NCBI RefSeq assembly: GCF_003334255.1
Contig: NZ_QOWU01000016.1
Length of the DNA: 64,000 nt
Source: Escherichia coli
Lineage (GTDB): Bacteria; Pseudomonadota; Gammaproteobacteria; Enterobacterales; Enterobacteriaceae
Reading direction: 5' to 3' (one strand)
Shown: in pieces, positions 3,201-42,621 of the stretch
How positions within the stretch are numbered: position 1 is the stretch's first letter
How the letters are laid out: every line of letters starts with the position of its first letter
Notes under the pieces: generated by a model
Databases searched by the model: none
What the model was told of the DNA's origin: nothing
The model's input: only the letters and a program-made list of their open reading frames with translations
Made by a program: the position numbers and the translations under genes

Positions 3201-3248
3201 ATAGCCGCCTGTGTTGTAATGACAACGTTTCGCGGCTATTCTTGAGTG

Positions 3249-3314
3249 GTCTAGAGTCAAGATTAGCCCCCGTGGTGTTGTCAGGTGCATACCTGCAACG
3301 TGCGGGGGTTTTCT
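3249..3314 (+). ncRNA. rdlD: Rdl antisense RNA (antitoxin of ldrD), about 66 nt ending in an intrinsic terminator
   Basis: 66-nt stretch gtctagagtcaagattagcccccgtgg...cgggggttttct on the strand opposite the ldrD 5' region; cccccg/cggggg stem plus U-tract; boundaries recalled from the Ldr/Rdl family, not mapped. Confidence 0.55.
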
Positions 3315-11471: not shown

Positions 11472-11805
<334 letters not shown>

Positions 11806-22994: not shown

Positions 22995-23002
22995 GCACAT
23001 CA

Positions 23003-23161
23003 ACGGTTTGACGTACAGACCATTAAAGCAGTGTAGTAAGGCAAGTCCCTTCAAGAGTTATCGTTGATACCCCTCGTAGTGCACATTCCTTTAACGCTTC
23101 AAAATCTGTAAAGCACGCCATATCGCCGAAAGGCACACTTAATTATTAAAGGTAATACACT
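23003..23161 (+). promoter_or_regulatory. cspA long 5' UTR (about 159 nt; cold box and RNA thermosensor region)
   Basis: Sequence upstream of cspA ATG matches the recalled cspA leader; function is established knowledge. Confidence 0.7.
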
Positions 23162-23374
23162 ATGTCCGGTAAAATGACTGGTATCGTAAAATGGTTCAAC
23201 GCTGACAAAGGCTTCGGCTTCATCACTCCTGACGATGGCTCTAAAGATGTGTTCGTACACTTCTCTGCTATCCAGAACGATGGTTACAAATCTCTGGACG
23301 AAGGTCAGAAAGTGTCCTTCACCATCGAAAGCGGCGCTAAAGGCCCGGCAGCTGGTAACGTAACCAGCCTGTAA
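23162..23374 (+). CDS. cspA: Major cold-shock protein CspA (70 aa)
   Basis: Translation [70 protein letters not shown] is CspA. Confidence 0.97.
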
Positions 23375-23402
23375 TCTCTGCTTAAAAGCACAGAATCTAA
23401 GA

Positions 23403-23431
23403 TCCCTGCCATTTGGCGGGGATTTTTTTAT
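23403..23431 (+). terminator. Intrinsic terminator of cspA (ccctgcc-attt-ggcgggg plus T-run)
   Basis: GC-rich hairpin followed by atttttttatttg. Confidence 0.6.
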
Positions 23432-23560
23432 TTGTTTTCAGGAAATAAATAATCGATCGCGTAATAAAATCTATTATTATTTTTGTGAAGAATAAATTTG
23501 GGTGCAATGAGAATGCGCAACGCCGTAAGTAAGGCGGGAATAATTTCCCGCCGAAGACTC

Positions 23561-23713
23561 TTACTCTTTCAATTTGCAGGCTAAAAACGCCGCCAGCTCA
23601 TAACTCTCCTGTTTAATATGCAATTCACACAGTGAATCTCTTATCATCCAGGTGAAAAATAAAAGCGTGAAACAAATCACTATTAAAGAAAGTAATCTAT
23701 ATTTCTGCGGCAT
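23561..23713 (-). CDS. hokA: Hok-family type I toxin HokA (50 aa)
   Basis: Last 50 codons of ORF 23561..23815 read MPQKYRLLSLIVICFTLLFFTWMIRDSLCELHIKQESYELAAFLACKLKE; ATG at 23711-23713. Confidence 0.85.
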   Translation of the reverse strand: MPQKYRLLSLIVICFTLLFFTWMIRDSLCELHIKQESYELAAFLACKLKE

Positions 23714-23900
23714 TCCCAGCCTCCTGTGTTGATTTCCAACGAGTGATTTATAGTCAGGTGGGGCTTTTCTCTGTCTGCCTTTCGGTGAATACCTGAGACA
23801 AACAGTCTCAAGCACCCGTGGCTATTCTAGCTTAATAAGTTTGTTTCTTCTCCTTGATATAATCCTAAAAAAATCTCATAAAATTAATATATGAGATAAT
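23714..23900. other. hokA upstream control region expected to hold the overlapping mok reading frame and the antisense sok RNA; boundaries not mapped
   Basis: Placement by analogy with hok/sok loci; the ORF track shows the N-terminal extension (MLETVCLRYSPKGRQRKAPPDYKSLVGNQHRRLG) overlapping hokA. Confidence 0.3.
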
Positions 23901-23944
23901 CTTTATTCAGCAGAAGATTATTAAAGGTTGCTGTATTATTTAGC

Positions 23945-23973
23945 GATAAAAAAAGCCTGCCAGATGGCAGGCT
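23945..23973 (-). terminator. Intrinsic terminator downstream of glyS (agcctgcca-gat-ggcaggct, U-run on minus strand)
   Basis: Perfect 9-bp inverted repeat flanked by an A-run on the + strand, 18 bp past the glyS stop. Confidence 0.6.
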
Positions 23974-23990
23974 ATTTAATAACGGCGTTA

Positions 23991-26060
23991 TTATTGCAAC
24001 AGCGAAATATCCGCAACGCGCAGGAACAGTTCGCGCAGTTTCTCCAGCATGGTCAGACGGTTGATACGCAATTCTTTGTCATCAACCATGACCATCACTT
24101 TATCGAAGAAAGCATCAACCGGTTCACGCAGCTCAGCCAGTTCGACCAGCGCATCCTGGTAACGACCTTCCGTAAAGTACGGCTCCAGCTTGTCACGTAG
24201 CACCACAACCTGCATCGCCAGTTTAATTTCTTCCGGCTCTTTCAGGGTAGAGGCATTCACGCGGTCGCTCAGCACTTCGTCAGATTTCGCCAGAATGTTA
24301 GATACACGTTTGTTCGCCGCCGCCAGTGCAGCAGCTGCATCCAGGGTACGGAAATGCGATACCGCTTTCATACGGGCATCGAAATCAGCCGGACGAGTCG
24401 GACGACGCGCCAGTACCGCCTGGATGGTGTCAACGGTATAACCTTCGTCCTGATACCAGGCGCGGAAGCGACCGAGCATAAAGTCGATAACATCATCAAC
24501 TACGTTGGCATTAGTCAGCTTATCGCCATACAGACGCACCGCTTCTTCGGTCAGCGTTTGCAGATCAAGGTTGAGGTTCTTCTCAACGATAATTCGCAGC
24601 ACGCCAAGCGCGGCACGACGCAGCGCAAACGGGTCTTTGTCGCCTTTCGGATGCTGACCGATACCGAAGATACCCGCCAGGGTATCCATCTTGTCAGCAA
24701 TCGCCAGCGCACAAGCTACTGGGTTGGACGGCAGGTCATCACCAGCAAAACGCGGCTGATACTGCTCATTCAGCGCCACCGCGACATCTTCCGCTTCGCC
24801 ATCGTGACGCGCATAGTGCATCCCCATAACGCCCTGGGTGTCGGTGAACTCGAAGACCATGTTGGTCATCAGGTCGCACTTAGACAGCAGACCCGCACGG
24901 GTAGCGTGGTTAACGTCAGCGCCAATCTGTTCAGCAATCCAGCCAGCCAGCGCCTGGATGCGGTCAGTTTTGTCGCGCAGCGTCCCCAACTGTTGCTGGA
25001 ACAACACGGTTTGCAGGCGCGGCAGGTTATCTTCAAGACGTTTTTTACGGTCGGTGTTGAAGAAGAACTCGGCATCCGCCAGACGCGGACGAACGACTTT
25101 CTCGTTACCGGAGATAATCTGCTGCGGATCTTTCGATTCGATGTTGGCAACGAAGATAAAGTTCGGCAGCAGTTTGCCGTCGTTCGCATACACCGGGAAG
25201 TATTTCTGGTCACCTTTCATGGTGTAAACCAGCGCTTCAGCCGGCACCGCGAGGAATTTCTCTTCGAATTTTGCGGTCAGAACGACCGGCCACTCCACCA
25301 GCGAAGCCACTTCTTCCAGCAGGCTTTCGCTTAAGTCAGCGTTACCGCCAATCTTACGCGCTGCTTCTTCGGCATCGGCTTTAATCTTCGCCTTACGTTC
25401 TTCGTAATCGGCGATGACTTTCCCACGCTCACGCAGAATTTCCGGATACTGATCGGCGTTATCGATGGTGAATTCCGGCTCGCCCATAAAGCGGTGGCCG
25501 CGAATCACGCGATCGGACTGAATGCCCAGAATGGTTGCCGGAATGACTTTGTCGCCCAGCAGCAGGGTCACGGTGTGCACCGGACGCACGAAGTGCACGT
25601 CGCTTGCGCCCCAACGCATCAGTTTCGGGATCGGCAGTTTCGCCAGAGAAGTCGCAACCATATTCGGCAGCAGTGCTTCGGTGCTTTCGCCCTTCACATG
25701 GGCGCGATACAGCAGCCATTCGCCTTTATCGGTAGTCAGACGCTCAGCCTGGTCAACGGTAATACCGCAACCACGCGCCCAACCTTCTGCCGCTTTGCTC
25801 GGTTTGCCTTCAGCGTCGAACGCCTGGGCAATCGCCGGGCCGCGTTTTTCGATTTCACGATCCAGTTGCGCTTCCGCCAGGTTAGCTACTTTCAGCGCCA
25901 GACGACGCGGAGCAGCAAACCATTGAACGGTGCCGTGTGCGAGGCCAGCGTTATCCAGCTCCGCAGTAAAGTTCGCAGCAAAGGACTCAGCCAGGCTGCG
26001 CAGTGCTTTTGGTGGCAGCTCTTCAGTGCCGATTTCCACCAGAAAAGTTTTCTCAGACAT
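23991..26060 (-). CDS. glyS: Glycine--tRNA ligase beta subunit (689 aa)
   Basis: 689-aa ORF immediately downstream of glyQ. Confidence 0.97.
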
Positions 26061-26069
26061 AGCCGCCTC

Positions 26070-26981
26070 TTACTTATCTTTGTTGCACATCGGGAAGCCG
26101 AGGGCTTCACGGGAAGCGTAGTATGCTTCTGCCACTGCTTTGGTCAGGGTGCGAATGCGCAGAATGTAGCGCTGACGCTCGGTGACGGAGATGGCTTTAC
26201 GCGCATCCAGCAGGTTGAAGCTGTGGGCGGCTTTCAGAATACGCTCGTAGGCTGGCAGCGGCAGCGGATTTTCCAGCGCCAGCAGCTGCTGCGCTTCTTT
26301 CTCGTACTGCTCGAAGCAGGTGAACAGGAAGTCCACATCCGCGTATTCGAAGTTGTAAGTGGACTGCTCCACTTCGTTCTGATGGAACACGTCGCCGTAG
26401 GTGGTTTTACCCAGCGGGCCGTCGCTCCAGACCAGGTCGTAAACGCTGTCTACGCCCTGAATGTACATGGCCAGACGTTCCAGACCGTAGGTGATCTCGC
26501 CGGTAACCGGTTTACACTCCAGACCACCAACCTGCTGGAAGTAAGTGAACTGCGTCACTTCCATGCCGTTCAGCCACACTTCCCAGCCCAGTCCCCAGGC
26601 ACCCAGCGTCGGGTTTTCCCAGTTATCTTCCACGAAACGGATGTCGTGAATAGTCGGGTCCATGCCCAGCTCTTTCAGAGAACCGAGGTACAGCTCCTGA
26701 ATATTGTCCGGCGATGGCTTAATGACCACCTGGAACTGATAGTAGTGCTGTAAACGGTTGGGGTTTTCGCCGTAGCGACCATCGGTCGGGCGACGAGAAG
26801 GCTGAACATAAGCAGCCGCCATCGGTTCTGGCCCCAGCGCGCGCAGACAGGTCATTGGGTGAGAGGTTCCCGCGCCGACTTCCATGTCCAATGGTTGAAC
26901 AATGGTGCAGCCCTGGCGAGCCCAGTAATCCTGTAAGGTCAGGATCAAGCCCTGGAAGGTCCTGGTATCAAACTTTTGCAT
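26070..26981 (-). CDS. glyQ: Glycine--tRNA ligase alpha subunit (303 aa)
   Basis: 303-aa [28 protein letters not shown]... Confidence 0.97.
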
Positions 26982-27075
26982 ATTATTTCGTGCTGGATAC
27001 GTGTGGATTTAAAGGAAGGGATCAGTATACCCGCTGGATGGAAGATATACAGTACGAAACGGGAAAAAGCAGGGC

Positions 27076-27375
27076 TTAACGCATGGAAAGATGCAAAAAA
27101 TGGCCATCCGCGTCAAAAGAACAGACAAACTGCTCTTTACGGAAGGTATAACCGCGCATTTCATAGCTTCCCTGGAACTGTTCGAAGGCGGTGACGTCGA
27201 TTTTTTGCTCGCCGGTGTTATAACGTTTTGCCGCCTGATCCTTGCATAACGCTTCCATATTCAACGAACGCAGAGGATCAACCTTTACCCGTTGTGCTTT
27301 CTGCACGGGTGACGGTATAGAACAACCCACTAGCACCATAAGCGCCATTGCCGGAAAGAAAGCGTTCATCATCAT
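27076..27375 (-). CDS. ysaB: Uncharacterised lipoprotein YsaB (99 aa)
   Basis: 99-aa ORF with lipobox (MALMVLVGC) upstream of glyQS. Confidence 0.8.
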   Translation of the reverse strand: MMMNAFFPAMALMVLVGCSIPSPVQKAQRVKVDPLRSLNMEALCKDQAAKRYNTGEQKIDVTAFEQFQGSYEMRGYTFRKEQFVCSFDADGHFLHLSMR

Positions 27376-27549
27376 TAAATTACCGTCTGGTTTGCAGGTG
27401 AGTCTTATTATTTATATCGGTATAGTGGCTGATATCTTACGAATTTCCTTAAGCCTCTATAAGCTGTAGTGATAAAACTCAGATTATTCCAGTGCGCCAA
27501 CCAAATGATTTATCGGTCAGACTTTTTTTAACCAGATACAGAGACACAG

Positions 27550-28545
27550 ATGCAGCCCAAAATTTACTGGATTGATAACCTGCGAGGGATAGCGTGTTTA
27601 ATGGTGGTGATGATTCACACCACTACCTGGTATGTGACCAATGCTCATAGTGTTAGCCCCGTCACATGGGATATCGCCAATGTTCTGAATTCTGCCTCTC
27701 GTGTCAGCGTGCCGCTATTTTTCATGATTTCCGGCTATCTCTTTTTTGGCGAACGCAGCGCCCAGCCGCGCCATTTCTTGCGTATCGGCTTATGTCTGAT
27801 TTTTTATAGCGCAATCGCACTGCTCTACATTGCGCTGTTTACCTCCATCAATATGGAGTTAGCGCTGAAAAACCTGCTGCAAAAGCCAGTGTTTTACCAC
27901 TTGTGGTTTTTCTTCGCGATTGCGGTGATTTATCTGGTTTCACCGCTGATTCAGGTGAAGAACGTCGGCGGAAAAATGTTGCTGGTGCTAATGGCGGTGA
28001 TTGGCATTATCGCTAACCCAAACACAGTGCCGCAGAAAATTGACGGTTTTGAATGGCTGCCAATTAACTTATATATCAATGGCGATACTTTTTACTACAT
28101 TCTGTATGGCATGTTGGGCCGCGCTATAGGGATGATGGACACACAGCATAAAGCACTGTCGTGGGTGAGCGCCGCGCTGTTTGCGACGGGGGTTTTTATT
28201 ATCTCTCGCGGGACATTATATGAATTGCAGTGGCGCGGAAATTTTGCCGATACCTGGTATCTTTACTGTGGGCCGATGGTTTTTATCTGCGCAATCGCGC
28301 TATTGACTCTGGTTAAAAACACGCTGGATACGCGTACCATTCGCGGACTTGGCTTAATCTCCCGCCATTCATTGGGTATATACGGATTCCACGCCTTGAT
28401 TATCCATGCGCTGCGCACCCGGGGAATTGAGCTTAAAAATTGGCCAATACTGGATATTATTTGGATCTTTTGCGCGACGTTGGCAGCGAGTTTGTTACTT
28501 TCTATGCTGGTACAACGAATCGACAGAAACAGATTAGTGAGTTAA
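27550..28545 (+). CDS. wecH: Membrane O-acetyltransferase WecH / YiaH (acyltransferase-3 family, 331 aa)
   Basis: Polytopic 331-aa [28 protein letters not shown]... Confidence 0.9.
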
Positions 28546-28586
28546 GTAAAAGCCCGGTCACATTGGACTGACCGGGCTTACGTGAG

Positions 28587-29024
28587 TTATTCGCTGTATT
28601 CTTCCTGGGTAACCTGTGTTTCTTTTGGTGGGTTTATTCCGGCATCACGAATATTTTTCTGCACCGCTACTGCACCAAACAAGCTTAAGAAGAAAGCCAG
28701 TCCATAAAAACCTTTTTCGCTGAGTAATAATGTCGCATTCCACAGACCTACCATCAGTAATGCAACAGAGATAATAAAGACAGTCAGGCAGGTCATATAA
28801 TAAATGGAAGTGGTCGGTATGCCTTCATACTTGTCCCGAACGGTCTTTTGATAAGACGCCGCAGAAAACAGTCCTAATACCAGTACGGCAAAATAATATC
28901 CTTTTTCATTTAACTGCATCTCTGCATTCCATAGCCCTAACAGATAGGTAACGATACCACCAACGAGAGCTATCCATGACACAATACTAAAGGCCGGTGA
29001 ATAGGTTGATATTTTGTTGTCCAT
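28587..29024 (-). CDS. yiaA: Inner-membrane protein YiaA (145 aa), internally duplicated YiaA/B two-helix domain
   Basis: ATG at 29022-29024; two repeats of L-x-GLWNA-x(5)-EKG(Y/F)Y motif. Confidence 0.85.
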
Positions 29025-29069
29025 CACAGTATTCCTTTCATTCCTGAATATGTAAGAGCTTTATGTTGC

Positions 29070-29411
29070 TCATGCCGAGCGAAACAAACGCATTTGACCA
29101 AACAAGCAGACAAAAAAGGCGATGGGATAGATCACCATTTCATAAGTATTGATAGGTGCGTTTAAAACACCGATAAACAAGAGACCGATAGTGATTAACG
29201 CAACTAACTGGCAGATATGGGTAAAAAAATCATCCAGTTGCCCGAGTTTTTCTGCGCGAAGATATGCATAGTTGCCAAAAGTTGCTGTCATTAACACGCC
29301 AAGAAAATAGCCTTTTCCACTTAACAATGGGCATGAGATCCATAGCCCAACCAGATAAACCAGCGCCCCGACAACAAATAATAGTTTTGCCACAGTCTTT
29401 GAGGTTTTCAT
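29070..29411 (-). CDS. yiaB: Inner-membrane protein YiaB (113 aa), paralog of YiaA
   Basis: ATG at 29409-29411 gives MKTSKTVAKLLFVVGALVYLVGLW...; same two-helix repeat. Confidence 0.8.
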   Translation of the reverse strand: MKTSKTVAKLLFVVGALVYLVGLWISCPLLSGKGYFLGVLMTATFGNYAYLRAEKLGQLDDFFTHICQLVALITIGLLFIGVLNAPINTYEMVIYPIAFFVCLFGQMRLFRSA

Positions 29412-29579
29412 AACGATCTCCATATCTACCAGCGATACATTACGAGTAACCAACGAAAGACAAAACTGAAAAATGCCATTAACAAATGATTTTCAGAATA
29501 AATTCATACTAAATATTAATTAATTACTGAGATATATAGATGTGAATTATCCCCCACCCGGTCAGGCAGGGGATAACGT

Positions 29580-31034
29580 TTACGCCATTAATGGCAGAAG
29601 TTGCTGATAGAGGCGACGGAACGTTTCTCGTCGTGGCTGATAAGCGGCATAACGCTGCGCATCTGGTAGATGCGACTGTTCTAACGGTAGTTGCGGCAAC
29701 AATTCAATGAGCGATTTCTCTGGATTCGCCGCGATCTGCGCCAGCCTTGCTGCGCCCAGTGCTGGCCCCACATCCCCCCCCGTACGGTAATCGAGCTGCT
29801 GACCGCTGATATCCGCCAGCATCTGACGCCAGTACTCACTACGCGCCCCGCCCCCAATCAACGTAACACTTTGCGGTTTAATACCGCAGGCATGCACGAC
29901 ATCCATGCCATCTGCCAGCGCATAACCCACGCCTTCCAGCACTGCTCGCGCCAGTTCATTGGGGCCATGTTGATGAGTCAAACCAAAGAAAACCCCCTTC
30001 GCCTGGGGATTATTGTGTGGCGTACGCTCGCCGGAAAGATAAGGCAGAAACCAAACTGGCTCGGCACTTTCATCAGCCTGTTGAGCTGCAGCGATTAAAG
30101 CTGGGACATTGCTCAGGCCGGTTAATTTCGCGGCCCAATCCAGACACGACGCTGCACTCAGCATCACAGACATTAAATGCCAACGTTGCGGTAGCGCATG
30201 GCAAAAGCTATGTACGGCGCTTTCTGGCTTGCTTAAGAACCCTTCGCTGACAGCAAAATAGACCCCCGACGTCCCCAGCGATAACATTGCCTGATTAGCA
30301 TCAACCATTCCCACACCAACTGCACCAGCTGCATTGTCGCCACCGCCTGCGACAACTGGCACCGTCGCCATACCCCACGCTTTCGCAACTTCAGGTAACA
30401 AAGCACCAGTAATTTCGCTGCCTTCGTATAATGCGGGCATCTGGTCACGAGATAAGTCGCAAGCCTGCAGCATGACGTCACTCCAGTCACGCTTTGCGAC
30501 ATCCAGCCACATGGTGCCAGCTGCGTCAGACATATCGCTGGCAAACTCCCCCGTCATACGCAGACGCAAGTAATCTTTCGGTAATAATACTTTGTCGATT
30601 TGACGGAATATCTCCGGCTCATGCCGCTGAACCCATAGCAATTTAGGCGCAGTAAATCCGGGCATCATCAGGTTGCCGGTAATCACCCGCGATTGCGGAA
30701 CTCGCGCTTCCAGCAAAGTGCACTCTTGCGCACAGCGCCCGTCGTTCCACAAAATGGCAGGGCGTAACACCCGTTGCTGAGCATCCAGCAAGGTTGCTCC
30801 GTGCATCTGGCCGGCAATACCCAATGCTTTAACGTCCTGCAGAGAATGCTGATCGCCCAGAGCTTTCATTGCGCGATCAGTTGCCTGCCACCACTGTTCC
30901 GGGTCTTGTTCCGACCAGAGTGGATGCGGGCGCGAAACGGTCAGCTTTTCCGTTTGCGCAGCAACCACCTCACCCTGCTCGTTGAGCAAAATAACTTTTA
31001 CGCCCGAGGTGCCAAGATCTATCCCGATATACAT
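29580..31034 (-). CDS. xylB: Xylulokinase XylB (484 aa)
   Basis: FGGY-kinase ORF MYIGIDLGTSGVKVILLNEQGEVVA... downstream of xylA. Confidence 0.95.
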   Translation of the reverse strand: MYIGIDLGTSGVKVILLNEQGEVVAAQTEKLTVSRPHPLWSEQDPEQWWQATDRAMKALGDQHSLQDVKALGIAGQMHGATLLDAQQRVLRPAILWNDGRCAQECTLLEARVPQSRVITGNLMMPGFTAPKLLWVQRHEPEIFRQIDKVLLPKDYLRLRMTGEFASDMSDAAGTMWLDVAKRDWSDVMLQACDLSRDQMPALYEGSEITGALLPEVAKAWGMATVPVVAGGGDNAAGAVGVGMVDANQAMLSLGTSGVYFAVSEGFLSKPESAVHSFCHALPQRWHLMSVMLSAASCLDWAAKLTGLSNVPALIAAAQQADESAEPVWFLPYLSGERTPHNNPQAKGVFFGLTHQHGPNELARAVLEGVGYALADGMDVVHACGIKPQSVTLIGGGARSEYWRQMLADISGQQLDYRTGGDVGPALGAARLAQIAANPEKSLIELLPQLPLEQSHLPDAQRYAAYQPRRETFRRLYQQLLPLMA

Positions 31035-31105
31035 ATCGATCGTTCCTTAAAAAAATGCCCGGTATCGCTACCGATAACCGGGCCAACGGACTGCACAGTT
31101 AGCCG

Positions 31106-32428
31106 TTATTTGTCGAACAGATAATGGTTTACCAGATTTTCCAGTTGTTCCTGGCGACCACTCTGATGCACCGGAGACAAATGATGTTCCTGAGCATATT
31201 TGGCTAAATCTGCCAGTGACATTTGGCCTTTCAGGATTTGCTGGCCCAATTCGCTATTCCAGCCGGAATAACGCTGCGCGATGCGTTTATCCAGCTCGCC
31301 ATCTTCAATCATGCGCGCTGCAATTTTCAGCGCCAGTGCCATCGTATCCATCGCGCCGATATGACCGTAAAACAGATCATATTTATCAGTACTTTGACGA
31401 CGTACTTTGGCATCGAAGTTCAGACCACCGGTGGTGAAACCGCCTGCTTTGAGAATTTCATACATCACCAGCGCATTCTCTTCCACACTGTTCGGGAACT
31501 GGTCGGTGTCCCAGCCCAGTTGCGCATCGCCACGGTTGGCGTCGACAGAACCGAACAGGCCAAGCGCAATGGCGGTGGCTATTTCATGATGGAAAGAGTG
31601 ACCTGCCAGCGTCGCGTGGTTAGCTTCAATGTTCAGTTTAATCTCTTTTTCCAGACCAAACTGTTTCAGGAAGCCATAGACCGTCGCGGCATCGTAATCA
31701 TATTGATGTTTGGTCGGTTCTTGCGGTTTCGGTTCGATAAGCAACGTGCCCTGGAAACCGATTTTATGTTTATGCTCAACCACCATCTGCATAAAGCGGC
31801 CCAGTTGTTCACGCTCCTGACGCAAGTCGGTATTTAACAGCGTTTCGTAACCTTCACGACCGCCCCACAGGACATAGTTTTCACCGCCCAATTTATGGGT
31901 TGCTTCCATCGCTGTAACAACTTGCGTTGCCGCCCAGCTGAAGACTTCAGGATCTGGGTTCGTCGCCGCACCCGCGCCGTAGCGAGGGTTTGTAAAGCAG
32001 TTGGCGGTTCCCCACAGCAGCTTCACGCCGCTCTCTTCTTGCTTGCCTGCCAGGACATCAACCATTTGCGCAAAATTATTGATGTACTCTTTTAACGACG
32101 CGCCCTCAGGGGAAACATCCACATCGTGGAAGCAATAAAATGGCACATGTAACTTGTGGAAAAACTCAAATGCGACATCTGCTTTACGCTTCGCCAACGC
32201 CAGTGCCTCACCAGGCTGCTGCCACGGACGATTAAACGCCCCCACACCAAACATATCCGCCCCGTTCCAGCAGAAGGTGTGCCAGTAGCAGGCGGCAAAA
32301 CGCAAGTGCTCTTCCATACGCTTACCCAACACCAGTTCGTCGGGATTGTAGTGACGGAATGCTAACGGGTTTGAGGATTTTGAGCCTTCATAACGAACGC
32401 GATCGAGCTGGTCAAAATAGGCTTGCAT
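31106..32428 (-). CDS. xylA: Xylose isomerase XylA (440 aa)
   Basis: ATG at 32426-32428 gives [31 protein letters not shown]... Confidence 0.95.
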
Positions 32429-32440
32429 ATTGAACTCCAT

Positions 32441-32793
32441 AATCAGGTAATGCCGCGGGTGATGGATGATGTCGTAATATTGGGCACTCCCTTTCAGTTG
32501 CTCAATTATGTTATTTCACACTGCTATTGAGATAATTCACAAGTGTGCGCTCGCTCGCAAAATAAAATGGAATGATGAAACTGGGTAATTCCTCGAAGAG
32601 AAAAATGCAATAAGTACAATTGCGCAACAAAAGTAAGATCTCGGTCATAAATCAAGAAATAAACCAAAAATCGTAATCGAAAGATAAAAATCTGTAATTG
32701 TTTTCCCCTGTTTAGTTGCTAAAAATTGGTTACGTTTATCGCGGTGATTGTTACTTATTAAAACTGTCCTCTAACTACAGAAGGCCCTACACC
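32441..32793. promoter_or_regulatory. Divergent xylA / xylF promoter region (expected XylR and CRP sites; individual sites not resolved)
   Basis: AT-rich 350-bp interval between divergent xylAB and xylFGHR; function is established knowledge. Confidence 0.6.
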
Positions 32794-33786
32794 ATGAAAA
32801 TAAAGAACATTCTACTCACCCTTTGCACCTCACTCCTGCTTACCAACGTTGCTGCACACGCCAAAGAAGTCAAAATAGGTATGGCGATTGATGATCTCCG
32901 TCTTGAACGCTGGCAAAAAGATCGAGATATCTTTGTGAAAAAGGCAGAATCTCTCGGCGCGAAAGTATTTGTACAGTCTGCAAATGGCAATGAAGAAACA
33001 CAAATGTCGCAGATTGAAAACATGATAAACCGGGGTGTCGATGTTCTTGTCATTATTCCGTATAACGGTCAGGTATTAAGTAACGTTGTAAAAGAAGCCA
33101 AACAAGAAGGCATTAAAGTATTAGCTTACGACCGTATGATTAACGATGCGGATATCGATTTTTATATTTCTTTCGATAACGAAAAAGTCGGTGAACTGCA
33201 GGCAAAAGCCCTGGTCGATATTGTTCCGCAAGGTAATTACTTCCTGATGGGCGGCTCGCCGGTAGATAACAACGCCAAGCTGTTCCGCGCCGGACAAATG
33301 AAAGTGTTAAAACCTTACGTTGATTCCGGAAAAATTAAAGTCGTTGGTGACCAATGGGTTGATGGCTGGTTACCGGAAAACGCATTGAAAATTATGGAAA
33401 ACGCGCTAACCGCCAATAATAACAAAATTGATGCTGTAGTTGCCTCAAACGATGCCACCGCAGGTGGGGCAATTCAGGCATTAAGCGCGCAAGGTTTATC
33501 AGGGAAAGTAGCAATCTCCGGCCAGGATGCGGATCTCGCAGGTATTAAACGTATTGCTGCCGGTACGCAAACTATGACGGTGTATAAACCTATTACGTTG
33601 TTGGCAAATACTGCCGCAGAAATTGCCGTTGAGTTGGGCAATGGTCAGGAACCAAAAGCAGATACCACACTGAATAATGGCCTGAAAGATGTCCCCTCCC
33701 GCCTCCTGACACCGATCGATGTGAATAAAAACAACATCAAAGATACGGTAATTAAAGACGGATTCCACAAAGAGAGCGAGCTGTAA
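32794..33786 (+). CDS. xylF: D-xylose ABC transporter periplasmic binding protein XylF (330 aa)
   Basis: ATG at 32794 gives MKIKNILLTLCTSLLLTNVAAHA (signal peptide). Confidence 0.93.
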   Translation: MKIKNILLTLCTSLLLTNVAAHAKEVKIGMAIDDLRLERWQKDRDIFVKKAESLGAKVFVQSANGNEETQMSQIENMINRGVDVLVIIPYNGQVLSNVVKEAKQEGIKVLAYDRMINDADIDFYISFDNEKVGELQAKALVDIVPQGNYFLMGGSPVDNNAKLFRAGQMKVLKPYVDSGKIKVVGDQWVDGWLPENALKIMENALTANNNKIDAVVASNDATAGGAIQALSAQGLSGKVAISGQDADLAGIKRIAAGTQTMTVYKPITLLANTAAEIAVELGNGQEPKADTTLNNGLKDVPSRLLTPIDVNKNNIKDTVIKDGFHKESEL

Positions 33787-33863
33787 GCGTTACGCCCCAG
33801 CGCGGAGCGGGGGCGTGATTTCTCTCCATGCCGCGTGAATGAATTGGCTTAGGTGGAGTCGTT

Positions 33864-35405
33864 ATGCCTTATCTACTTGAAATGAAGAACATTACCAAAA
33901 CCTTCGGCAGTGTGAAGGCGATTGATAACGTCTGCTTGCGGTTGAATGCTGGCGAAATCGTCTCACTTTGTGGGGAAAATGGGTCTGGTAAATCAACGCT
34001 GATGAAAGTGCTGTGTGGTATTTATCCCCATGGCTCCTACGAAGGCGAAATTATTTTTGCGGGAGAAGAGATTCAGGCGAGTCACATCCGCGATACCGAA
34101 CGCAAAGGTATCGCCATCATTCATCAGGAATTGGCCCTGGTGAAAGAATTGACCGTGCTGGAAAATATCTTCCTGGGTAACGAAATAACCCACAATGGCA
34201 TTATGGATTATGACCTGATGACGCTACGCTGTCAGAAGCTGCTCGCACAGGTCAGTTTATCCATTTCACCTGATACCCGCGTTGGCGATTTAGGGCTTGG
34301 GCAACAACAACTGGTTGAAATTGCCAAGGCACTTAATAAACAGGTGCGCTTGTTAATTCTCGATGAACCGACAGCCTCATTAACTGAGCAGGAAACGTCG
34401 GTTTTACTGGATATTATTCGCGATCTACAACAGCACGGTATCGCCTGTATTTATATTTCGCACAAACTCAACGAAGTCAAAGCGATTTCCGATACGATTT
34501 GCGTTATTCGCGACGGACAGCACATTGGTACGCGTGATGCTGCCGGAATGAGTGAAGACGATATTATCACCATGATGGTCGGGCGAGAGTTAACCGCGCT
34601 TTACCCTAATGAACCACATACCACCGGAGATGAAATATTACGTATTGAACATCTGACGGCATGGCATCCGGTTAATCGTCATATTAAACGAGTTAATGAT
34701 GTCTCGTTTTCCCTGAAACGTGGCGAAATATTGGGTATTGCCGGACTCGTTGGTGCCGGACGTACCGAGACCATTCAGTGCCTGTTTGGTGTGTGGCCCG
34801 GACAATGGGAAGGAAAAATTTATATTGATGGCAAACAGGTAGATATTCGTAACTGTCAGCAAGCCATCGCCCAGGGGATTGCGATGGTCCCCGAAGACAG
34901 AAAGCGCGACGGCATCGTTCCGGTAATGGCGGTTGGTAAAAATATTACCCTCGCCGCACTCAATAAATTTACCGGTGGCATTAGCCAGCTTGATGACGCG
35001 GCAGAGCAAAAATGTATTCTGGAATCAATCCAGCAACTCAAAGTTAAAACGTCGTCCCCCGACCTTGCTATTGGACGTTTGAGCGGCGGCAATCAGCAAA
35101 AAGCGATCCTCGCTCGCTGTCTGTTACTTAACCCGCGCATTCTCATTCTTGATGAACCCACCAGGGGTATCGATATTGGCGCGAAATACGAGATCTACAA
35201 ATTAATTAACCAACTCGTCCAGCAGGGTATTGCCGTTATTGTCATCTCTTCCGAATTACCTGAAGTGCTCGGCCTTAGCGATCGTGTACTGGTGATGCAT
35301 GAAGGGAAACTAAAAGCCAACCTGATAAATCATAACCTGACTCAGGAGCAGGTGATGGAAGCCGCATTGAGGAGCGAACATCATGTCGAAAAGCAATCCG
35401 TCTGA
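33864..35405 (+). CDS. xylG: D-xylose ABC transporter ATP-binding protein XylG (513 aa, duplicated ABC domains)
   Basis: Walker [10 protein letters not shown] in first half, second ABC domain with LSGGNQQK. Confidence 0.95.
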
Positions 35406-36564
35406 AGTGAAATTGGCCGTACCGACATCCGGTGGCTTCTCCGGGCTGAAATCACTGAATTTGCAGGTCTTCGTGATGATTGCAGCTATCATCGCAATCA
35501 TGCTGTTCTTTACCTGGACCACCGATGGTGCCTACTTAAGCGCCCGTAACGTCTCCAACCTGTTACGCCAGACCGCGATTACCGGCATCCTCGCGGTAGG
35601 AATGGTGTTCGTCATAATTTCTGCTGAAATCGACCTTTCCGTCGGCTCAATGATGGGGCTGTTAGGTGGCGTCGCGGCGATTTGTGACGTCTGGTTAGGC
35701 TGGCCTTTGCCACTTACCATCATTGTGACGCTGGTTCTGGGACTGCTTCTCGGTGCCTGGAACGGATGGTGGGTCGCGTACCGTAAAGTCCCTTCATTTA
35801 TTGTCACCCTCGCGGGCATGTTGGCATTTCGCGGCATACTCATTGGCATCACCAACGGCACGACTGTATCCCCCACCAGCGCCGCGATGTCACAAATTGG
35901 GCAAAGCTATCTCCCCGCCAGTACCGGCTTCATCATTGGCGCGCTTGGCTTAATGGCTTTTGTTGGTTGGCAATGGCGCGGAAGAATGCGCCGTCAGGCT
36001 TTGGGTTTACAGTCTCCGGCCTCTACCGCAGTAGTCGGTCGCCAGGCTTTAACCGCTATCATCGTATTAGGCGCAATCTGGCTGTTGAATGATTACCGTG
36101 GCGTTCCCACTCCTGTTCTGCTGCTGACGTTGCTGTTACTCGGCGGAATGTTTATGGCAACGCGGACGGCATTTGGACGACGCATTTATGCCATCGGCGG
36201 CAATCTGGAAGCAGCACGTCTCTCCGGGATTAACGTTGAACGCACCAAACTTGCCGTGTTCGCGATTAACGGATTAATGGTAGCCATCGCCGGATTAATC
36301 CTTAGTTCTCGACTTGGCGCTGGTTCACCTTCTGCGGGAAATATCGCCGAACTGGACGCAATTGCAGCATGCGTGATTGGCGGCACCAGCCTGGCTGGCG
36401 GTGTGGGAAGCGTTGCCGGAGCAGTAATGGGGGCATTTATCATGGCTTCACTGGATAACGGCATGAGTATGATGGATGTACCGACCTTCTGGCAGTATAT
36501 CGTTAAAGGTGCGATTCTGTTGCTGGCAGTATGGATGGACTCCGCAACCAAACGCCGTTCTTGA
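35383..36564 (+). CDS. xylH: D-xylose ABC transporter permease XylH (393 aa)
   Basis: Polytopic ORF overlapping xylG by 23 nt. Confidence 0.95.
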
Positions 36565-36641
36565 TTTTGATAAAAATTTTCTCAAAGCCGGTTACGTATT
36601 ACCGGTTTTGAGTTTTTGCATGATTCAGCAGGAAAAGAACC

Positions 36642-37820
36642 ATGTTTACTAAACGTCACCGCATCACATTACTGTTCAATGCCAATAAAGCCTATGACCG
36701 GCAGGTAGTAGAAGGCGTAGGGGAATATTTACAGGCGTCACAATCGGAATGGGATATTTTCATTGAAGAAGATTTCCGCGCCCGCATTGATAAAATCAAG
36801 GACTGGTTAGGAGATGGCGTCATTGCCGACTTCGACGACAAACAGATCGAGCAAGCGCTGGCTGATGTCGACGTCCCCATTGTTGGGGTTGGCGGCTCGT
36901 ATCACCTTGCAGAAAGTTACCCACCCGTTCATTACATTGCCACCGATAACTATGCGCTGGTTGAAAGCGCATTTTTGCATTTAAAAGAGAAAGGCGTTAA
37001 CCGCTTTGCTTTTTATGGTCTTCCGGAATCAAGCGGCAAACGTTGGGCCACTGAGCGCGAATATGCATTTCGTCAGCTTGTCGCCGAAGAAAAGTATCGC
37101 GGAGTGGTTTATCAGGGGTTAGAAACCGCGCCAGAGAACTGGCAACACGCGCAAAATCGGCTGGCAGACTGGCTACAAACGCTACCACCGCAAACCGGGA
37201 TTATTGCCGTTACTGACGCCCGAGCGCGGCATATTCTGCAAGTATGTGAACATCTACATATTCCCGTACCGGAAAAATTATGCGTGATTGGCATCGATAA
37301 CGAAGAACTGACCCGCTATCTGTCGCGTGTCGCCCTTTCTTCGGTCGCTCAGGGCGCGCGGCAAATGGGCTATCAGGCGGCAAAACTGTTGCATCGATTA
37401 TTAGATAAAGAAGAAATGCCGCTACAGCGAATTTTGGTCCCACCAGTTCGCGTCATTGAACGGCGCTCAACAGATTATCGCTCGCTGACCGATCCCGCCG
37501 TTATTCAGGCCATGCATTACATTCGTAATCACGCCTGTAAAGGGATTAAAGTGGATCAGGTACTGGATGCGGTCGGGATCTCGCGCTCCAATCTTGAGAA
37601 GCGTTTTAAAGAAGAGGTGGGTGAAACCATCCATGCCATGATTCATGCCGAGAAGCTGGAGAAAGCGCGCAGTCTGCTGATTTCAACCACCTTGTCGATC
37701 AATGAGATATCGCAAATGTGCGGTTATCCATCGCTGCAATATTTCTACTCTGTTTTTAAAAAAGCATATGACACGACGCCAAAAGAGTATCGCGATGTAA
37801 ATAGCGAGGTCATGTTGTAG
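36642..37820 (+). CDS. xylR: Xylose operon regulator XylR (392 aa; sugar-binding domain plus AraC-type HTH)
   Basis: C-terminal AraC-type HTH (…ISQMCGYPSLQYFYSVFKKAYDTTPKEYRD). Confidence 0.93.
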   Translation: MFTKRHRITLLFNANKAYDRQVVEGVGEYLQASQSEWDIFIEEDFRARIDKIKDWLGDGVIADFDDKQIEQALADVDVPIVGVGGSYHLAESYPPVHYIATDNYALVESAFLHLKEKGVNRFAFYGLPESSGKRWATEREYAFRQLVAEEKYRGVVYQGLETAPENWQHAQNRLADWLQTLPPQTGIIAVTDARARHILQVCEHLHIPVPEKLCVIGIDNEELTRYLSRVALSSVAQGARQMGYQAAKLLHRLLDKEEMPLQRILVPPVRVIERRSTDYRSLTDPAVIQAMHYIRNHACKGIKVDQVLDAVGISRSNLEKRFKEEVGETIHAMIHAEKLEKARSLLISTTLSINEISQMCGYPSLQYFYSVFKKAYDTTPKEYRDVNSEVML

Positions 37821-37864
37821 CGATGATGAGAATTGTCGGCGTCACATCAGGTAACGCTGCGTGG

Positions 37865-37900
<36 letters not shown>

Positions 37901-37961
37901 CCGCCAGGCATGATAAAACGCACCAACAACGCTTCAGGCTCGTAGCTCAACTGCCTGAGAC

Positions 37962-38007
37962 AAAGTAAAAAGCCTTATCCGACTGACAAGTCGGATAAGG
38001 CTCAAGG
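37962..38007 (-). terminator. Hairpin downstream of bax (gccttatccgac...gtcggataaggc, U-run on minus strand)
   Basis: 12-bp inverted repeat flanked by aaaaa on the + strand, about 10 bp past the bax stop. Confidence 0.5.
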
Positions 38008-38015
38008 AAATGCAA

Positions 38016-38840
38016 TTACATATGCGCCGCGATTAACCGTTGGTTATCCTGGTACATTGCGAACAGGTAGTTGTTATAACTCTTCCCTTTGGTCGAGTAG
38101 CCCTTCAGCTTGTGAATCATCGCTGTGGCAGTCACTTCCTGATCCGCTTTACGCAGCTGCGCACGCGATTTACGGAACGAAGAGTAAGCCGGGTGCGTAT
38201 TCAGGTTAGTGACATAGGCGCTCACCGATTCTTTGACAGAACTAAACTGTGAGTACCCTTTCACTTTACCTGGCGCATTGGTACAACGTCCTTTCATGCA
38301 TTTCATGCCGAACAGGTTGTTGTTGTTGCGCGCCAGCTTCGACGTTCCCCAACCGCTTTCTGCTGCAGCCATCGTCGCCACCATACTGGTGGGGATAATG
38401 TCTACGCGTTCAAGCAAGGTATTCCACGGGATTTTTCGCGTATTACCGGACCACTTCACCTTGTAGCGTTTGGCGATGTCTTTCAGACGCGCACGCTCAG
38501 CAGGTGACCATTGGCCCTGATACTGTTTTGAAATGAGCCAGTTACGTTCCGCAGTAATGGCCGCATTTTGGCTGGTAATGTAAGGCATTACGGTCCGGAG
38601 AAACGCCTTTTTCCTTGGTGTTCCGGAAGGGTATTTTCGCAAATCAGGAAGTGAACTACTCTTTGCACTATTGCGAGAATACTCTTGTTTACTGCTTACC
38701 TGTTTATTACTAGCTTTAGTTAAGTGGGACTTTTGACTCGCTGTTGTTGTGTGCGTCTTCGCTAACACCTCACTCGAAAACACCAGAGTGAGTAACATAA
38801 GAATCATCGCCCCATATCGTCGTATGGGAGTCAAAATCAT
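38016..38840 (-). CDS. bax: Putative glucosaminidase Bax (274 aa)
   Basis: 274-aa ORF with signal-anchor N-terminus. Confidence 0.85.
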   Translation of the reverse strand: MILTPIRRYGAMILMLLTLVFSSEVLAKTHTTTASQKSHLTKASNKQVSSKQEYSRNSAKSSSLPDLRKYPSGTPRKKAFLRTVMPYITSQNAAITAERNWLISKQYQGQWSPAERARLKDIAKRYKVKWSGNTRKIPWNTLLERVDIIPTSMVATMAAAESGWGTSKLARNNNNLFGMKCMKGRCTNAPGKVKGYSQFSSVKESVSAYVTNLNTHPAYSSFRKSRAQLRKADQEVTATAMIHKLKGYSTKGKSYNNYLFAMYQDNQRLIAAHM

Positions 38841-39059
38841 CAGGTCTCCTGGTCGGATTTAATCATTCCAACACCTTATATTTTTCACAAATTTGAGAGT
38901 TGAATCTCAAATCATATCAAAAATAGCTGTCAAGAGCACCCCAAGGAATAGTCCAAATCTGAAACTATGTCACGTGTTAACGATTCAGATTGGCGCTAAA
39001 TCGCAGAAAATGTGGGGGTTATCGCAAAATTCAGCCGTTTTTTGCGCGAGATCGCTCAC

Positions 39060-39159
39060 CCTTGCTTCTCATCCTGTGGACTTACCGCTCAGGGATGAGT
39101 TTTGTTTGGCTTATCGCTGGCAAACTGTCTGAAATCGCAGCAATAAGGACTCATCCGCC
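39060..39159 (+). promoter_or_regulatory. malS promoter region with GGATGA-type MalT-box-like hexamers (39069-39074 on minus, 39093-39098 on plus)
   Basis: Hexamers read in sequence; MalT dependence of malS is established knowledge; exact sites not verified. Confidence 0.4.
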
Positions 39160-41190: not shown

Positions 41191-41367
41191 CTTTTCCGGC
41201 TTCCCGTTCGTCAGTACCTCGGGAAGCCGCCAACCAGGATAAAATGTCAGCCCTAATCAGCGTTGCAGGATAAAGCACCGCTCACTCTTCAACAGACCGA
41301 TTTGCACCCCAGCAAATGTAGCGTTATTGTTACCTTCCTTGCTACAGAGTTCGACAGATATCCCGCT

Positions 41368-42621
41368 ATGACATTCTCCCTTTTTGGTGACAAATTTACC
41401 CGCCACTCCGGCATTACGCTGTTGATGGAAGATCTGAACGACGGTTTACGCACGCCTGGCGCGATTATGCTCGGCGGCGGTAATCCGGCGCAGATCCCGG
41501 AAATGCAGGACTACTTCCAGACGCTACTGACCGACATGCTGGAAAGTGGCAAAGCGACTGATGCACTGTGTAACTACGACGGTCCACAGGGGAAAACGGA
41601 GCTACTCACACTGCTTGCCGGAATGCTGCGCGAGAAGTTGGGTTGGGATATCGAACCACAGAATATTGCACTAACAAACGGCAGCCAGAGCGCGTTTTTC
41701 TACTTATTTAACCTGTTTGCCGGACGCCGTGCCGATGGTCGGGTCAAAAAAGTGCTGTTCCCGCTTGCACCGGAATACATTGGCTATGCTGACGCCGGAC
41801 TGGAAGAAGATCTGTTTGTCTCTGCGCGTCCGAATATTGAACTGCTGCCGGAAGGCCAGTTTAAATACCACGTCGATTTTGAGCATCTGCATATTGGCGA
41901 AGAAACCGGGATGATTTGCGTCTCCCGGCCGACGAATCCAACAGGCAATGTGATTACTGACGAAGAGTTGCTGAAGCTTGACGCGCTGGCGAATCAACAC
42001 GGCATTCCGCTGGTGATTGATAACGCTTATGGCGTCCCGTTCCCGGGTATCATCTTCAGTGAAGCGCGCCCGCTATGGAATCCGAATATCGTGCTGTGCA
42101 TGAGTCTTTCCAAGCTGGGTCTACCTGGCTCCCGCTGCGGCATTATCATCGCCAATGAAAAAATCATCACCGCCATCACCAATATGAACGGCATTATCAG
42201 CCTGGCACCTGGCGGTATTGGTCCGGCGATGATGTGTGAAATGATTAAGCGTAACGATCTGCTGCGCCTGTCTGAAACAGTCATCAAACCGTTTTACTAC
42301 CAGCGTGTTCAGGAAACTATCGCCATCATTCGCCGCTATTTACCGGAAAATCGCTGCCTGATTCATAAACCGGAAGGAGCCATTTTCCTCTGGCTATGGT
42401 TTAAGGATTTGCCCATTACGACCGAGCAGCTCTATCAGCGCCTGAAAGCACGCGGCGTGCTGATGGTGCCGGGGCACAACTTCTTCCCAGGGCTGGATAA
42501 ACCGTGGCCGCATACGCATCAATGTATGCGCATGAACTACGTACCAGAGCCGGAGAAAATTGAGGCGGGGGTGAAGATTCTGGCGGAAGAGATAGAAAGA
42601 GCCTGGGCTGAAAGTCACTAA
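41368..42621 (+). CDS. avtA: Valine--pyruvate aminotransferase AvtA (417 aa)
   Basis: ATG at 41368 gives MTFSLFGDKFTRHSGITLLMEDL...; PLP-lysine motif region (SLSKLGLPGSRCG). Confidence 0.9.
   Translation: MTFSLFGDKFTRHSGITLLMEDLNDGLRTPGAIMLGGGNPAQIPEMQDYFQTLLTDMLESGKATDALCNYDGPQGKTELLTLLAGMLREKLGWDIEPQNIALTNGSQSAFFYLFNLFAGRRADGRVKKVLFPLAPEYIGYADAGLEEDLFVSARPNIELLPEGQFKYHVDFEHLHIGEETGMICVSRPTNPTGNVITDEELLKLDALANQHGIPLVIDNAYGVPFPGIIFSEARPLWNPNIVLCMSLSKLGLPGSRCGIIIANEKIITAITNMNGIISLAPGGIGPAMMCEMIKRNDLLRLSETVIKPFYYQRVQETIAIIRRYLPENRCLIHKPEGAIFLWLWFKDLPITTEQLYQRLKARGVLMVPGHNFFPGLDKPWPHTHQCMRMNYVPEPEKIEAGVKILAEEIERAWAESH

What the first reader, a model, noticed from the sequence alone, without database searches (positions are those of the whole stretch)
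23561..23990. Uninterrupted hokA toxin locus; the window is not from MG1655
hokA encodes an intact 50-aa Hok toxin with about 277 bp of upstream region before glyS, and the ORF track shows the overlapping mok-like frame. As I recall, MG1655 has an IS150 copy (insJK) between hokA and glyS that is thought to inactivate the locus; it is absent here. This chromosome may therefore retain a functional chromosomal hok/sok system placed directly beside cspA, and the strain background differs from the reference.
Basis: partly seen in the sequence, partly recalled or inferred. Interest (0 to 1): 0.35.

Follow-up and report, generated by a model that had tools for sequence, protein, structure and literature searches.

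The report
IS150-loss scar in dead hokA locus
The hokA toxin gene is intact and the IS150 element found here in E. coli K-12 is absent, but the 45 bases carrying the system's translation switch (mok) and antitoxin RNA start (sok) are missing too, so this is a known dead toxin-antitoxin locus with the IS element lost, not a working one.

Summary
The factual observation holds. hokA (23561..23713, minus strand) is an intact 50-aa Hok toxin. It lies 277 bp from glyS. The IS150 that MG1655 carries between them is absent, and the window is not MG1655: it has 17 SNPs over 64 kb, and its alleles are shared with wild isolates such as strain G8.

The inference of a functional hok/sok system fails. The junction at 23744/23745 is not an empty IS150 site. 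Compared with uninterrupted natural loci (e.g. strain HH97; 2831 of 5426 complete genomes have a contiguous locus), the window lacks 45 bp. These held the mokA Shine-Dalgarno sequence and ATG, the AGCCTCTT box, and the -10, start and first ~20 nt of sokA.

MG1655, E. coli B (REL606) and G8 carry one identical allele, and its left junction is present in 1659 genomes. In it, IS150 replaces 39 of those 45 bp. The window equals that allele minus 1450 bp (IS150 plus 1 bp on the left and 6 bp on the right).

The Rfam hok/sok leader model scores 62 bits here against 119 bits on the intact locus.

The exact junction was found in none of the 5426 complete genomes, the metagenome contigs or the GTDB representative genomes. 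How the IS was lost (natural imprecise excision, engineering or artefact) is unresolved.

Interest is low: this is a known degenerate locus in a rare allelic form.

The parts
23561..23713 (-). hokA coding sequence (50 aa plus stop), intact
   Evidence: ORF list. NCBIfam HokA equivalog NF007290, 129.7 bits against a cut-off of 89. Pfam HOK_GEF PF01848, 1.6e-21. Annotated hokA in MG1655, HH97, G8 and REL606.
23720..23725 (-). hokA Shine-Dalgarno sequence AGGAGG
   Evidence: Read from the sequence. RNAfold pairs it, together with the AUG, to the 3' part of the hokA coding region in both the window allele and the intact allele (AUG P(unpaired) about 0).
23744..23745 (.). Deletion junction (scar). 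45 bp of the natural locus are missing here; equivalently, IS150 plus 7 flanking bp of the K-12-type allele are missing (the T at 23744 is ambiguous).
   Evidence: Pairwise BLAST and direct reading against MG1655, HH97 and G8. The junction is not seen as one piece in any of 5426 complete genomes. The 38-mer is absent from metagenome contigs and GTDB representatives.
23714..23743 (-). Remnant of the mokA-specific region (codons ...LVGNQHRRLG), now without its SD and start codon
   Evidence: mokA in HH97 translates to MHRHHKVSLLLVGNQHRRLG followed by HokA, in frame. MG1655 annotates mokA as a pseudogene at the equivalent position.
23730..23735 (+). TTGATT, the inferred -35 hexamer of the sokA promoter, left without its -10 and transcription start
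   Evidence: Inferred from position in the intact HH97 sequence (TTGATT-N17-TAACCT). The equivalent R1-type arrangement TTGCGC-N17-TATCCT can be read. The promoter assignment itself rests on my knowledge of R1 sok and was not tested.
23744..23774 (+). 3' remnant of sokA (about 30 nt). The part complementary to the mok initiation region is missing.
   Evidence: MG1655 annotates the sokA pseudogene at 3722077..3722111, which maps to window ..23774. The window keeps 5-6 nt less of it than MG1655 does.
23760..23817 (-). 5' stem-loop of the hokA mRNA leader, with the tac element GGGTGCTTGAG at 23807..23817
   Evidence: Matches Rfam RF01794 model positions 1-58. Predicted to pair with fbi.
23711..23817 (-). 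Whole Rfam 'sok' (hok leader) match, shortened
   Evidence: 62.1 bits against a gathering threshold of 59; about 52 model positions are missing in the middle. The intact HH97 locus scores 119.3 bits over the full model.
23500..23511 (-). fbi (fold-back inhibition) element CUCAUUGCACCC in the hokA 3' UTR
   Evidence: The RNAfold minimum-free-energy structure pairs transcript nt 1-11 with nt 307-318 in the window allele, and with the equivalent positions in the intact allele.
23824..23829 (-). Candidate -10 (TAGAAT) of the hokA promoter, 6 nt upstream of the inferred +1 at 23817
   Evidence: Sequence reading only. The simple consensus scan did not report it. Inferred, not shown.
23954..23973 (-). 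glyS intrinsic terminator hairpin, bounding the locus
   Evidence: Terminator scan.
23162..23429 (+). cspA coding sequence and terminator, convergent with the hokA 3' end
   Evidence: ORF list. Rfam cspA thermoregulator, 500.8 bits over 23002..23429. Terminator at 23399..23426.

Best explanation
This is the degenerate hokA/mokA/sokA type I toxin-antitoxin locus of the K-12/B lineage of E. coli, in a form that has additionally lost the IS150 element. The proposed history has three steps. An ancestral intact locus resembled that of strain HH97. It then acquired IS150 together with a 39-bp loss in the leader; this is the allele of MG1655, REL606 and G8, whose left junction is present in 1659 complete genomes. 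In the lineage of this window, a 1450-bp deletion then removed IS150 plus 1 bp on the hokA side and 6 bp on the glyS side. The result rejoins the hokA promoter and 5' leader (tac stem-loop) to the hokA SD and ORF. The 45 nt that hold the mokA SD and start codon, the AGCCUCUU box and the Sok target are still missing. On the other strand, the -10, start and first ~20 nt of sokA are missing. In hok/sok systems, Hok translation depends on translation of mok, and the hokA SD and AUG are predicted to stay buried in a long-range helix. The toxin gene is therefore most likely transcribed but not translated, and no Sok antitoxin RNA is made or needed. Shown here: the sequence anatomy, the allele relationships and the population frequencies. 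Inferred: translational silence, the promoter assignments and the way the IS was lost.
For: MG1655 carries IS150 at this site, with mokA and sokA annotated as pseudogenes. The window equals MG1655 minus 1450 bp, with otherwise 100% identical local flanks. HH97 and the other contiguous loci carry 45 extra bp at exactly this point. Those 45 bp align to the mok SD GAGG, the mok ATG and the AGCCTCTTAC box of an R1-type plasmid hok leader and to helices 2-3 of Rfam RF01794 (62.1 against 119.3 bits). The K-12 junction strings are identical in MG1655, REL606, G8, strain 127 and two draft genomes that encode the window's exact GlyS. G8, which carries IS150, is 100% identical to window 23744-42294. The scar cannot be the pre-insertion state, because the K-12 allele keeps ancestral bases (A and ACTTT) that the scar lacks. 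tac/fbi pairing and sequestration of the hokA SD/AUG are predicted in both alleles. Literature: the mok start codon and SD are required for Hok translation (PMC9841398); sokA of MG1655 is disrupted by IS150 (PMC11551753, citing Pedersen & Gerdes 1999).
Against: No expression data exist for this allele. Rejoining the native promoter and leader to an SD-bearing hokA ORF without any antitoxin could in principle allow some Hok synthesis. The structure predictions are thermodynamic only. The promoter assignments are by analogy, and the consensus scan saw neither the hokA nor the sokA promoter, even in the intact locus. The exact junction is unique among all collections searched, so its origin (natural, engineered or artefactual) cannot be established.
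Confidence: 0.85

Rival explanations
1. One reading: an uninterrupted, potentially functional chromosomal hok/sok system, in which Hok is held in check by Sok RNA through mok.
For: The hokA ORF is intact. IS150 is absent. The tac and fbi elements and the 5' stem-loop are present. The Rfam sok model is just above its gathering score (62.1 against 59).
Against: The mok SD, ATG and first 10 codons, and the sok -10, start and 5' target-recognition part, are deleted. [quoted passage not shown] Even the intact hokA locus of E. coli C reportedly gave no post-segregational killing (bioRxiv 10.1101/2025.08.07.668861).
Confidence: 0.03
2. The 45-bp gap arose directly from an intact, never-interrupted locus by a small deletion unrelated to IS150.
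For: Relative to HH97 the difference is a single 45-bp, in-frame deletion. On the hokA side the window is 100% identical to HH97.
Against: The left edge lies within 1 bp, and the right edge within 6 bp, of the K-12-type IS150 junctions. The closest relatives over tens of kb (G8, and draft genomes with the identical GlyS) all carry the K-12-type IS150 allele. HH97 differs at 4 positions in the first 957 bp on the glyS side.
Confidence: 0.07
3. The absence of IS150 is not a natural event: either the element was removed on purpose (an IS-cleaned laboratory strain) or it was dropped or collapsed during assembly or sequence processing. This concerns only how the scar arose, not what the locus is.
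For: The junction is found in none of 5426 complete genomes, although 1659 carry the parental allele. It is absent from contigs encoding the same GlyS, from metagenome contigs and from GTDB representatives. The deletion is almost exactly IS-sized (1450 against 1443 bp) with only 1 bp of microhomology. There are no other indels relative to MG1655 over 64 kb.
Against: The SNP pattern is that of a wild K-12-related strain, not MG1655 or B, and the IS-free chassis strains I know of derive from those two backgrounds (own knowledge). Spontaneous reversion of an IS150 insertion in another sok gene has been observed in the laboratory (PMC11551753).
Confidence: 0.35

Closest known systems
hokA / mokA(pseudo) / sokA(pseudo) locus of E. 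coli K-12 MG1655 (b4455, b4647, b4614), inactivated by IS150 (Pedersen & Gerdes 1999, as cited in PMC11551753)
   Same: The hokA ORF, 3' UTR, leader remnants and flanks are identical. The same 39 bp of the mok/sok core are missing. The position between cspA and glyS is the same.
   Different: IS150 is absent, and a further 1 + 6 bp are gone. As a result the hokA promoter and 5' leader are again contiguous with the hokA SD and ORF.
Intact chromosomal hokA/mokA/sokA loci of natural isolates (e.g. strain HH97, NZ_CP116409.1; E. coli C in the literature)
   Same: Same genomic position, same HokA protein, same tac, fbi and 5' stem-loop.
   Different: The intact loci carry 45 more bp, holding the mokA SD/ATG (giving a 70-aa in-frame Mok-Hok ORF), the AGCCTCTT box and the 5' end of sokA. 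They score 119.3 bits on Rfam against 62.1 here.
hok/sok of plasmid R1 (type I toxin-antitoxin, post-segregational killing)
   Same: Hok/Gef-family toxin. Homologous leader architecture, with a 5' tac stem-loop and 3' fbi.
   Different: No mok initiation region and no complete sok gene. In hokA loci mok is in frame with hok, whereas in the R1-type sequence it is out of frame. The locus is chromosomal. No killing function is expected.
IS-excision footprints / IS-cleaned genomes (e.g. spontaneous sokE::IS150 to sokE+ reversion in PMC11551753; IS-free chassis strains, own knowledge)
   Same: An IS3-family element is missing from a site where close relatives carry it, and the joint lies within a few bp of the IS ends.
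   Different: The loss is not precise: 7 flanking bp are lost, no target duplication is left, and the locus was not restored to the intact state. The cause is unknown.

Membership tests
Hok/Gef toxin family (HokA equivalog) | Small (~50 aa) hydrophobic protein matching PF01848 / NF007290 above the curated cut-off | tested here: met
   NF007290 at 129.7 bits against a cut-off of 89. PF01848 at 1.6e-21 over residues 5-46.
Functional hok/sok-type type I toxin-antitoxin locus | mok reading frame with its own SD and start codon upstream of, and overlapping, hok (needed for Hok translation) | tested here: not met
   The SD GAGG, the ATG and the first 10 codons present in HH97 are deleted in the window. 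MG1655 annotates mokA as a pseudogene.
Functional hok/sok-type type I toxin-antitoxin locus | Complete sok antisense gene: a promoter and a 5' segment complementary to the mok initiation region | tested here: not met
   Only the inferred -35 (23730-23735) and about 30 nt of the 3' end (23744-23774) remain. The -10, the start and the target-complementary 5' part lie in the missing 45 bp.
Functional hok/sok-type type I toxin-antitoxin locus | tac (5') / fbi (3') long-range pairing of the full-length mRNA | tested here: met
   The RNAfold minimum-free-energy structure pairs nt 1-11 with nt 307-318 (window 23807-23817 with 23500-23511). This is a prediction only.
Functional hok/sok-type type I toxin-antitoxin locus | Full-length match to the Rfam RF01794 hok/sok leader model | tested here: inconclusive
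   62.1 bits, just above the gathering score of 59, with about 52 model positions (helices 2-3) absent. The intact locus scores 119.3 bits.
Functional hok/sok-type type I toxin-antitoxin locus | Sok-controlled killing / post-segregational killing phenotype | not testable with these tools
   Requires experiments. The literature reports no such killing even for the intact hokA locus of E. coli C (bioRxiv 10.1101/2025.08.07.668861).
K-12-type hokA::IS150 allele | IS150 present between GAGTA and AACTTTGATT, + orientation | tested here: not met
   The window has no IS150. The junction strings are present in MG1655, REL606, G8, strain 127 and two draft genomes, but not in the window.
K-12-type hokA::IS150 allele | Loss of the 39 bp AGAGGC...GGCCTC of the ancestral leader | tested here: met
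   The same 39 bp are absent, plus 6 more.

The most novel reading that the evidence does not exclude
The scar is a genuine natural IS150 excision footprint. By rejoining the hokA promoter and leader to an SD-bearing hokA ORF with neither mok nor Sok, it would create an antitoxin-less, differently regulated hokA that can still be expressed under some conditions, for example when the long-range helix is opened. That would be a natural experiment in how a type I toxin gene survives loss of its antitoxin.
Probability: 0.05. Interest if true: 0.4.

Novelty: already known. Interest (0 to 1): 0.15.

Why it matters
It matters little in itself. The hokA/sokA locus and its inactivation by IS150 in K-12 have been described since 1999, and the window carries that same defect minus the IS. 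The practical lesson is that absence of an insertion element does not make a locus intact: the comparison must be with truly uninterrupted alleles, not only with the reference strain. The unique junction is a useful strain marker. If natural, it is a rare example of imprecise IS150 loss.

Tried and rejected
1. Looked for the exact junction elsewhere.
- A 111-bp query against 5426 complete E. coli genomes gave 54 perfect hits, all split into two pieces spanning 156 bp.
- The 38-mer was absent from metagenome contigs and from GTDB representative genomes.
- The fused 84-aa ORF was not on record as a called protein.
- Contigs encoding the window's exact GlyS all carried IS150 or broke at its position.
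- The source strain therefore could not be identified.

2. Tested whether the window is an IS-cleaned MG1655 derivative (MDS42-type). Rejected: there are 17 SNPs in 64 kb, and their alleles match wild strain G8.

3. Tested E. coli B as the background. Rejected: REL606 has three ldr copies where the window and MG1655 have one, and it carries the IS150 allele.

4. Considered the scar as the ancestral empty site of the K-12 insertion. Rejected: the K-12 allele retains ancestral bases that the scar lacks.

5. The consensus promoter scan found no hokA or sokA promoter in either the window or the intact locus. The scan is too strict for these weak promoters, so it is uninformative.

6. Sub-threshold Rfam hits at 23916-24090 (STnc370, Phe/Trp leaders, istR) fall on or next to the glyS terminator, which lies at 23954-23973. 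I treated them as chance.

7. Tried to read Pedersen & Gerdes 1999 directly; the paper is not held. It is cited only through papers that cite it.

8. E. coli C and W were not aligned, because their coordinates were unknown and the search output cannot be filtered by strain.

Full report
**What is at the coordinates**

- The minus strand of 23561..23713 encodes a 50-aa protein, MPQKYRLL...ACKLKE.
- It matches the NCBIfam HokA equivalog at 129.7 bits (cut-off 89) and Pfam Hok/Gef at 1.6e-21.
- cspA lies upstream on the plus strand: the coding sequence is 23162..23374, and the Rfam cspA thermoregulator scores 500.8 bits over 23002..23429.
- glyS ends at 23991 on the minus strand, leaving 277 bp between the hokA ATG and glyS.

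**Comparison with MG1655**

- NC_000913.3 annotates IS150 (insJ, insK) at 3720633..3722075, 32 nt upstream of the hokA ATG. It is flanked by a mokA pseudogene and a 35-nt sokA pseudogene.
- The whole window is collinear with MG1655 3696888..3762337. It differs by 17 substitutions and a single 1450-bp deletion at window 23744.
- The window is therefore not MG1655.
- The substitutions are natural alleles. The human faecal isolate G8 is 100% identical to window 23744-42294, and in a three-way comparison it shares five of the derived alleles.
- E. coli B (REL606) is excluded as the background, because it has three ldr copies where the window has one.

**The junction is not an empty site**

The three sequences read as follows.
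- Window: ...CCAACGAGT|GATTTATAG...
- MG1655: ...CCAACGAGTA[IS150, 1443 bp]AACTTTGATTTATAG...
- Strain HH97 (natural, IS-free)...CCAACGAGTA AGAGGCTAACCTTATGGTGTCTATGCATAGAGGGGCCTC ACTTTGATTTATAG....

Three points follow from this.
- The K-12 allele has IS150 in place of 39 bp of the ancestral leader.
- The window lacks those 39 bp plus 6 more, 45 bp in all. Equivalently, it lacks IS150 plus 1 bp on the left and 6 bp on the right of the K-12 allele, with one T ambiguous.
- The K-12 allele still holds ancestral bases (A and ACTTT) that the window lacks, so the window allele cannot be the pre-insertion state. It is derived.

The K-12-type allele is the most parsimonious parent.
- The edges of the gap lie within 1 bp and 6 bp of the K-12 IS150 junctions.
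- The nearest relatives (G8, and draft genomes encoding the identical GlyS) all carry the K-12 junction strings.

**What the missing 45 nt encode**

- Read on the hokA strand, the missing stretch is AAGUGAGGCCCCUCUAUGCAUAGACACCAUAAGGUUAGCCUCUU.
- Aligned with an R1-type plasmid hok leader, it covers the mok SD (GAGG), the mok AUG and the conserved AGCCUCUUAC box.
- In HH97 the mok ATG opens a 70-codon frame that is an in-frame N-terminal extension of HokA: MHRHHKVSLLLVGNQHRRLG followed by HokA.
- The window keeps only the codons for ...LVGNQHRRLG.
It exists only because the 45-nt loss is in frame.
- On the opposite strand, the same 45 bp hold the inferred sokA -10 (TAACCT, 17 bp after the TTGATT at 23730-23735), the transcription start, and the ~20-nt 5' part of SokA that is complementary to the mok initiation region. 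Only about 30 nt of the SokA 3' end remain (23744-23774).
- The promoter assignment is by positional analogy with R1 (own knowledge; the arrangement is readable) and is not shown.

**Quantitative check with the Rfam hok/sok leader model RF01794**

- The intact HH97 locus scores 119.3 bits (E = 1.6e-28) over the full model.
- The window scores 62.1 bits against a gathering score of 59. About 52 model positions are missing, comprising the second helix in part and the whole third helix, which is the mok SD hairpin.

**What remains, and the likely consequence**

- The 5' stem-loop with the tac element (23807-23817) and the 3' fbi element (23500-23511) are present.
- They are predicted to pair in both the window RNA and the intact RNA.
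- In both, the hokA SD and AUG are predicted to pair with the 3' part of the coding region (AUG P(unpaired) about 0).
- In the R1 system, mutations of the mok start codon or SD abolish Hok translation (PMC9841398).
- By that analogy, the window allele should give a hokA transcript that is not translated, and no Sok RNA. This is inference; there are no expression data.
- Even the truly intact hokA locus of E. coli C reportedly did not give post-segregational killing and was not activated by rifampicin (bioRxiv 10.1101/2025.08.07.668861, citing Pedersen & Gerdes 1999).

**Population picture across 5426 complete E. coli genomes**

- 2831 genomes have a contiguous locus. The locus spans about 665 bp in the records against the 620-bp query, which reflects the extra 45 bp.
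- 1659 genomes carry the K-12-type left junction. MG1655, REL606, G8 and strain 127 carry both junctions of that allele.
- Most of the remaining genomes appear to carry IS150 in the opposite orientation, as a simple insertion at CCTCACTT|IS150|CACTTTG. This is shown only in strain CLSC36.
- None has the window's junction.
- The junction is also absent from metagenome contigs and GTDB representatives, and the fused ORF is not on record among called proteins.
- How the IS was lost therefore remains open. It could be natural imprecise excision: a spontaneous sokE::IS150 to sokE+ revertant is documented in PMC11551753. It could also be deliberate removal, or an assembly or processing artefact.

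**Comparison with what is known**

- The locus is the known hokA/sokA system, one of five chromosomal hok loci of E. coli. That the K-12 copy is disrupted by IS150 is established (PMC11551753, citing Pedersen & Gerdes 1999; annotation).
- The toxin is a member of the Hok/Gef family.
- The locus fails two defining features of a functional hok/sok system: the mok initiation region and a complete sok gene.
- It is a previously unrecorded allele of a known degenerate locus, not a new kind of system.

**Verdict**

- Novelty is 'already known', and interest is low (0.15).

Noticed in passing
window 23744 region; L006:3416-4858; L014:2247-3689; L001:1234-2676: The leader just 5' of the mok SD looks like an IS150 hotspot. 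About 48% of 5426 complete E. coli genomes are interrupted at the same few nucleotides of hokA. 1659 carry the K-12-type left junction (+ orientation, with the 39-bp loss). Most of the rest appear to carry IS150 in the opposite orientation as a simple insertion, shown here only in strain CLSC36. An R1-type plasmid hok/sok locus (pCTXM15_000533) carries IS150 at the homologous position with a TGG target duplication. Recurrent IS150 hits in hok/sok loci are reported in PMC5419217 and PMC11551753. The basis of the site preference was not examined.
   Followed up: partly
window 23711-23817 (-): The Rfam family named 'sok antitoxin' (RF01794) matches the hok-mRNA strand and ends at the hokA AUG. 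In practice it models the hok leader rather than the antisense Sok RNA, so strand calls from this family need care.
   Followed up: no
window 23513-23584 (+): The small ORF ysaE (23 aa, annotated in MG1655 and RefSeq genomes) overlaps the 3' end of hokA on the opposite strand.
   Followed up: no
window 3093-3312: A second type I toxin-antitoxin pair, ldrD/rdlD, lies in the window as a single copy, as in MG1655. REL606 has three tandem ldr genes at this place.
   Followed up: no
window 11472-11579 and 11640-11747: Two identical 108-bp direct repeats lie upstream of tRNA-Pro (proK); REL606 annotates an RtT sRNA in this region. Strain G8 is 168 bp shorter here than the window and MG1655.
   Followed up: no
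window 11060: A tri-allelic site between dppA and proK: G in the window, C in MG1655, A in G8.
   Followed up: no
window 23916-23983 (+): A sub-threshold Rfam hit to STnc370 (33.6 bits; gathering score 54) coincides with the glyS terminator hairpin at 23954-23973. It is probably just the terminator.
   Followed up: no
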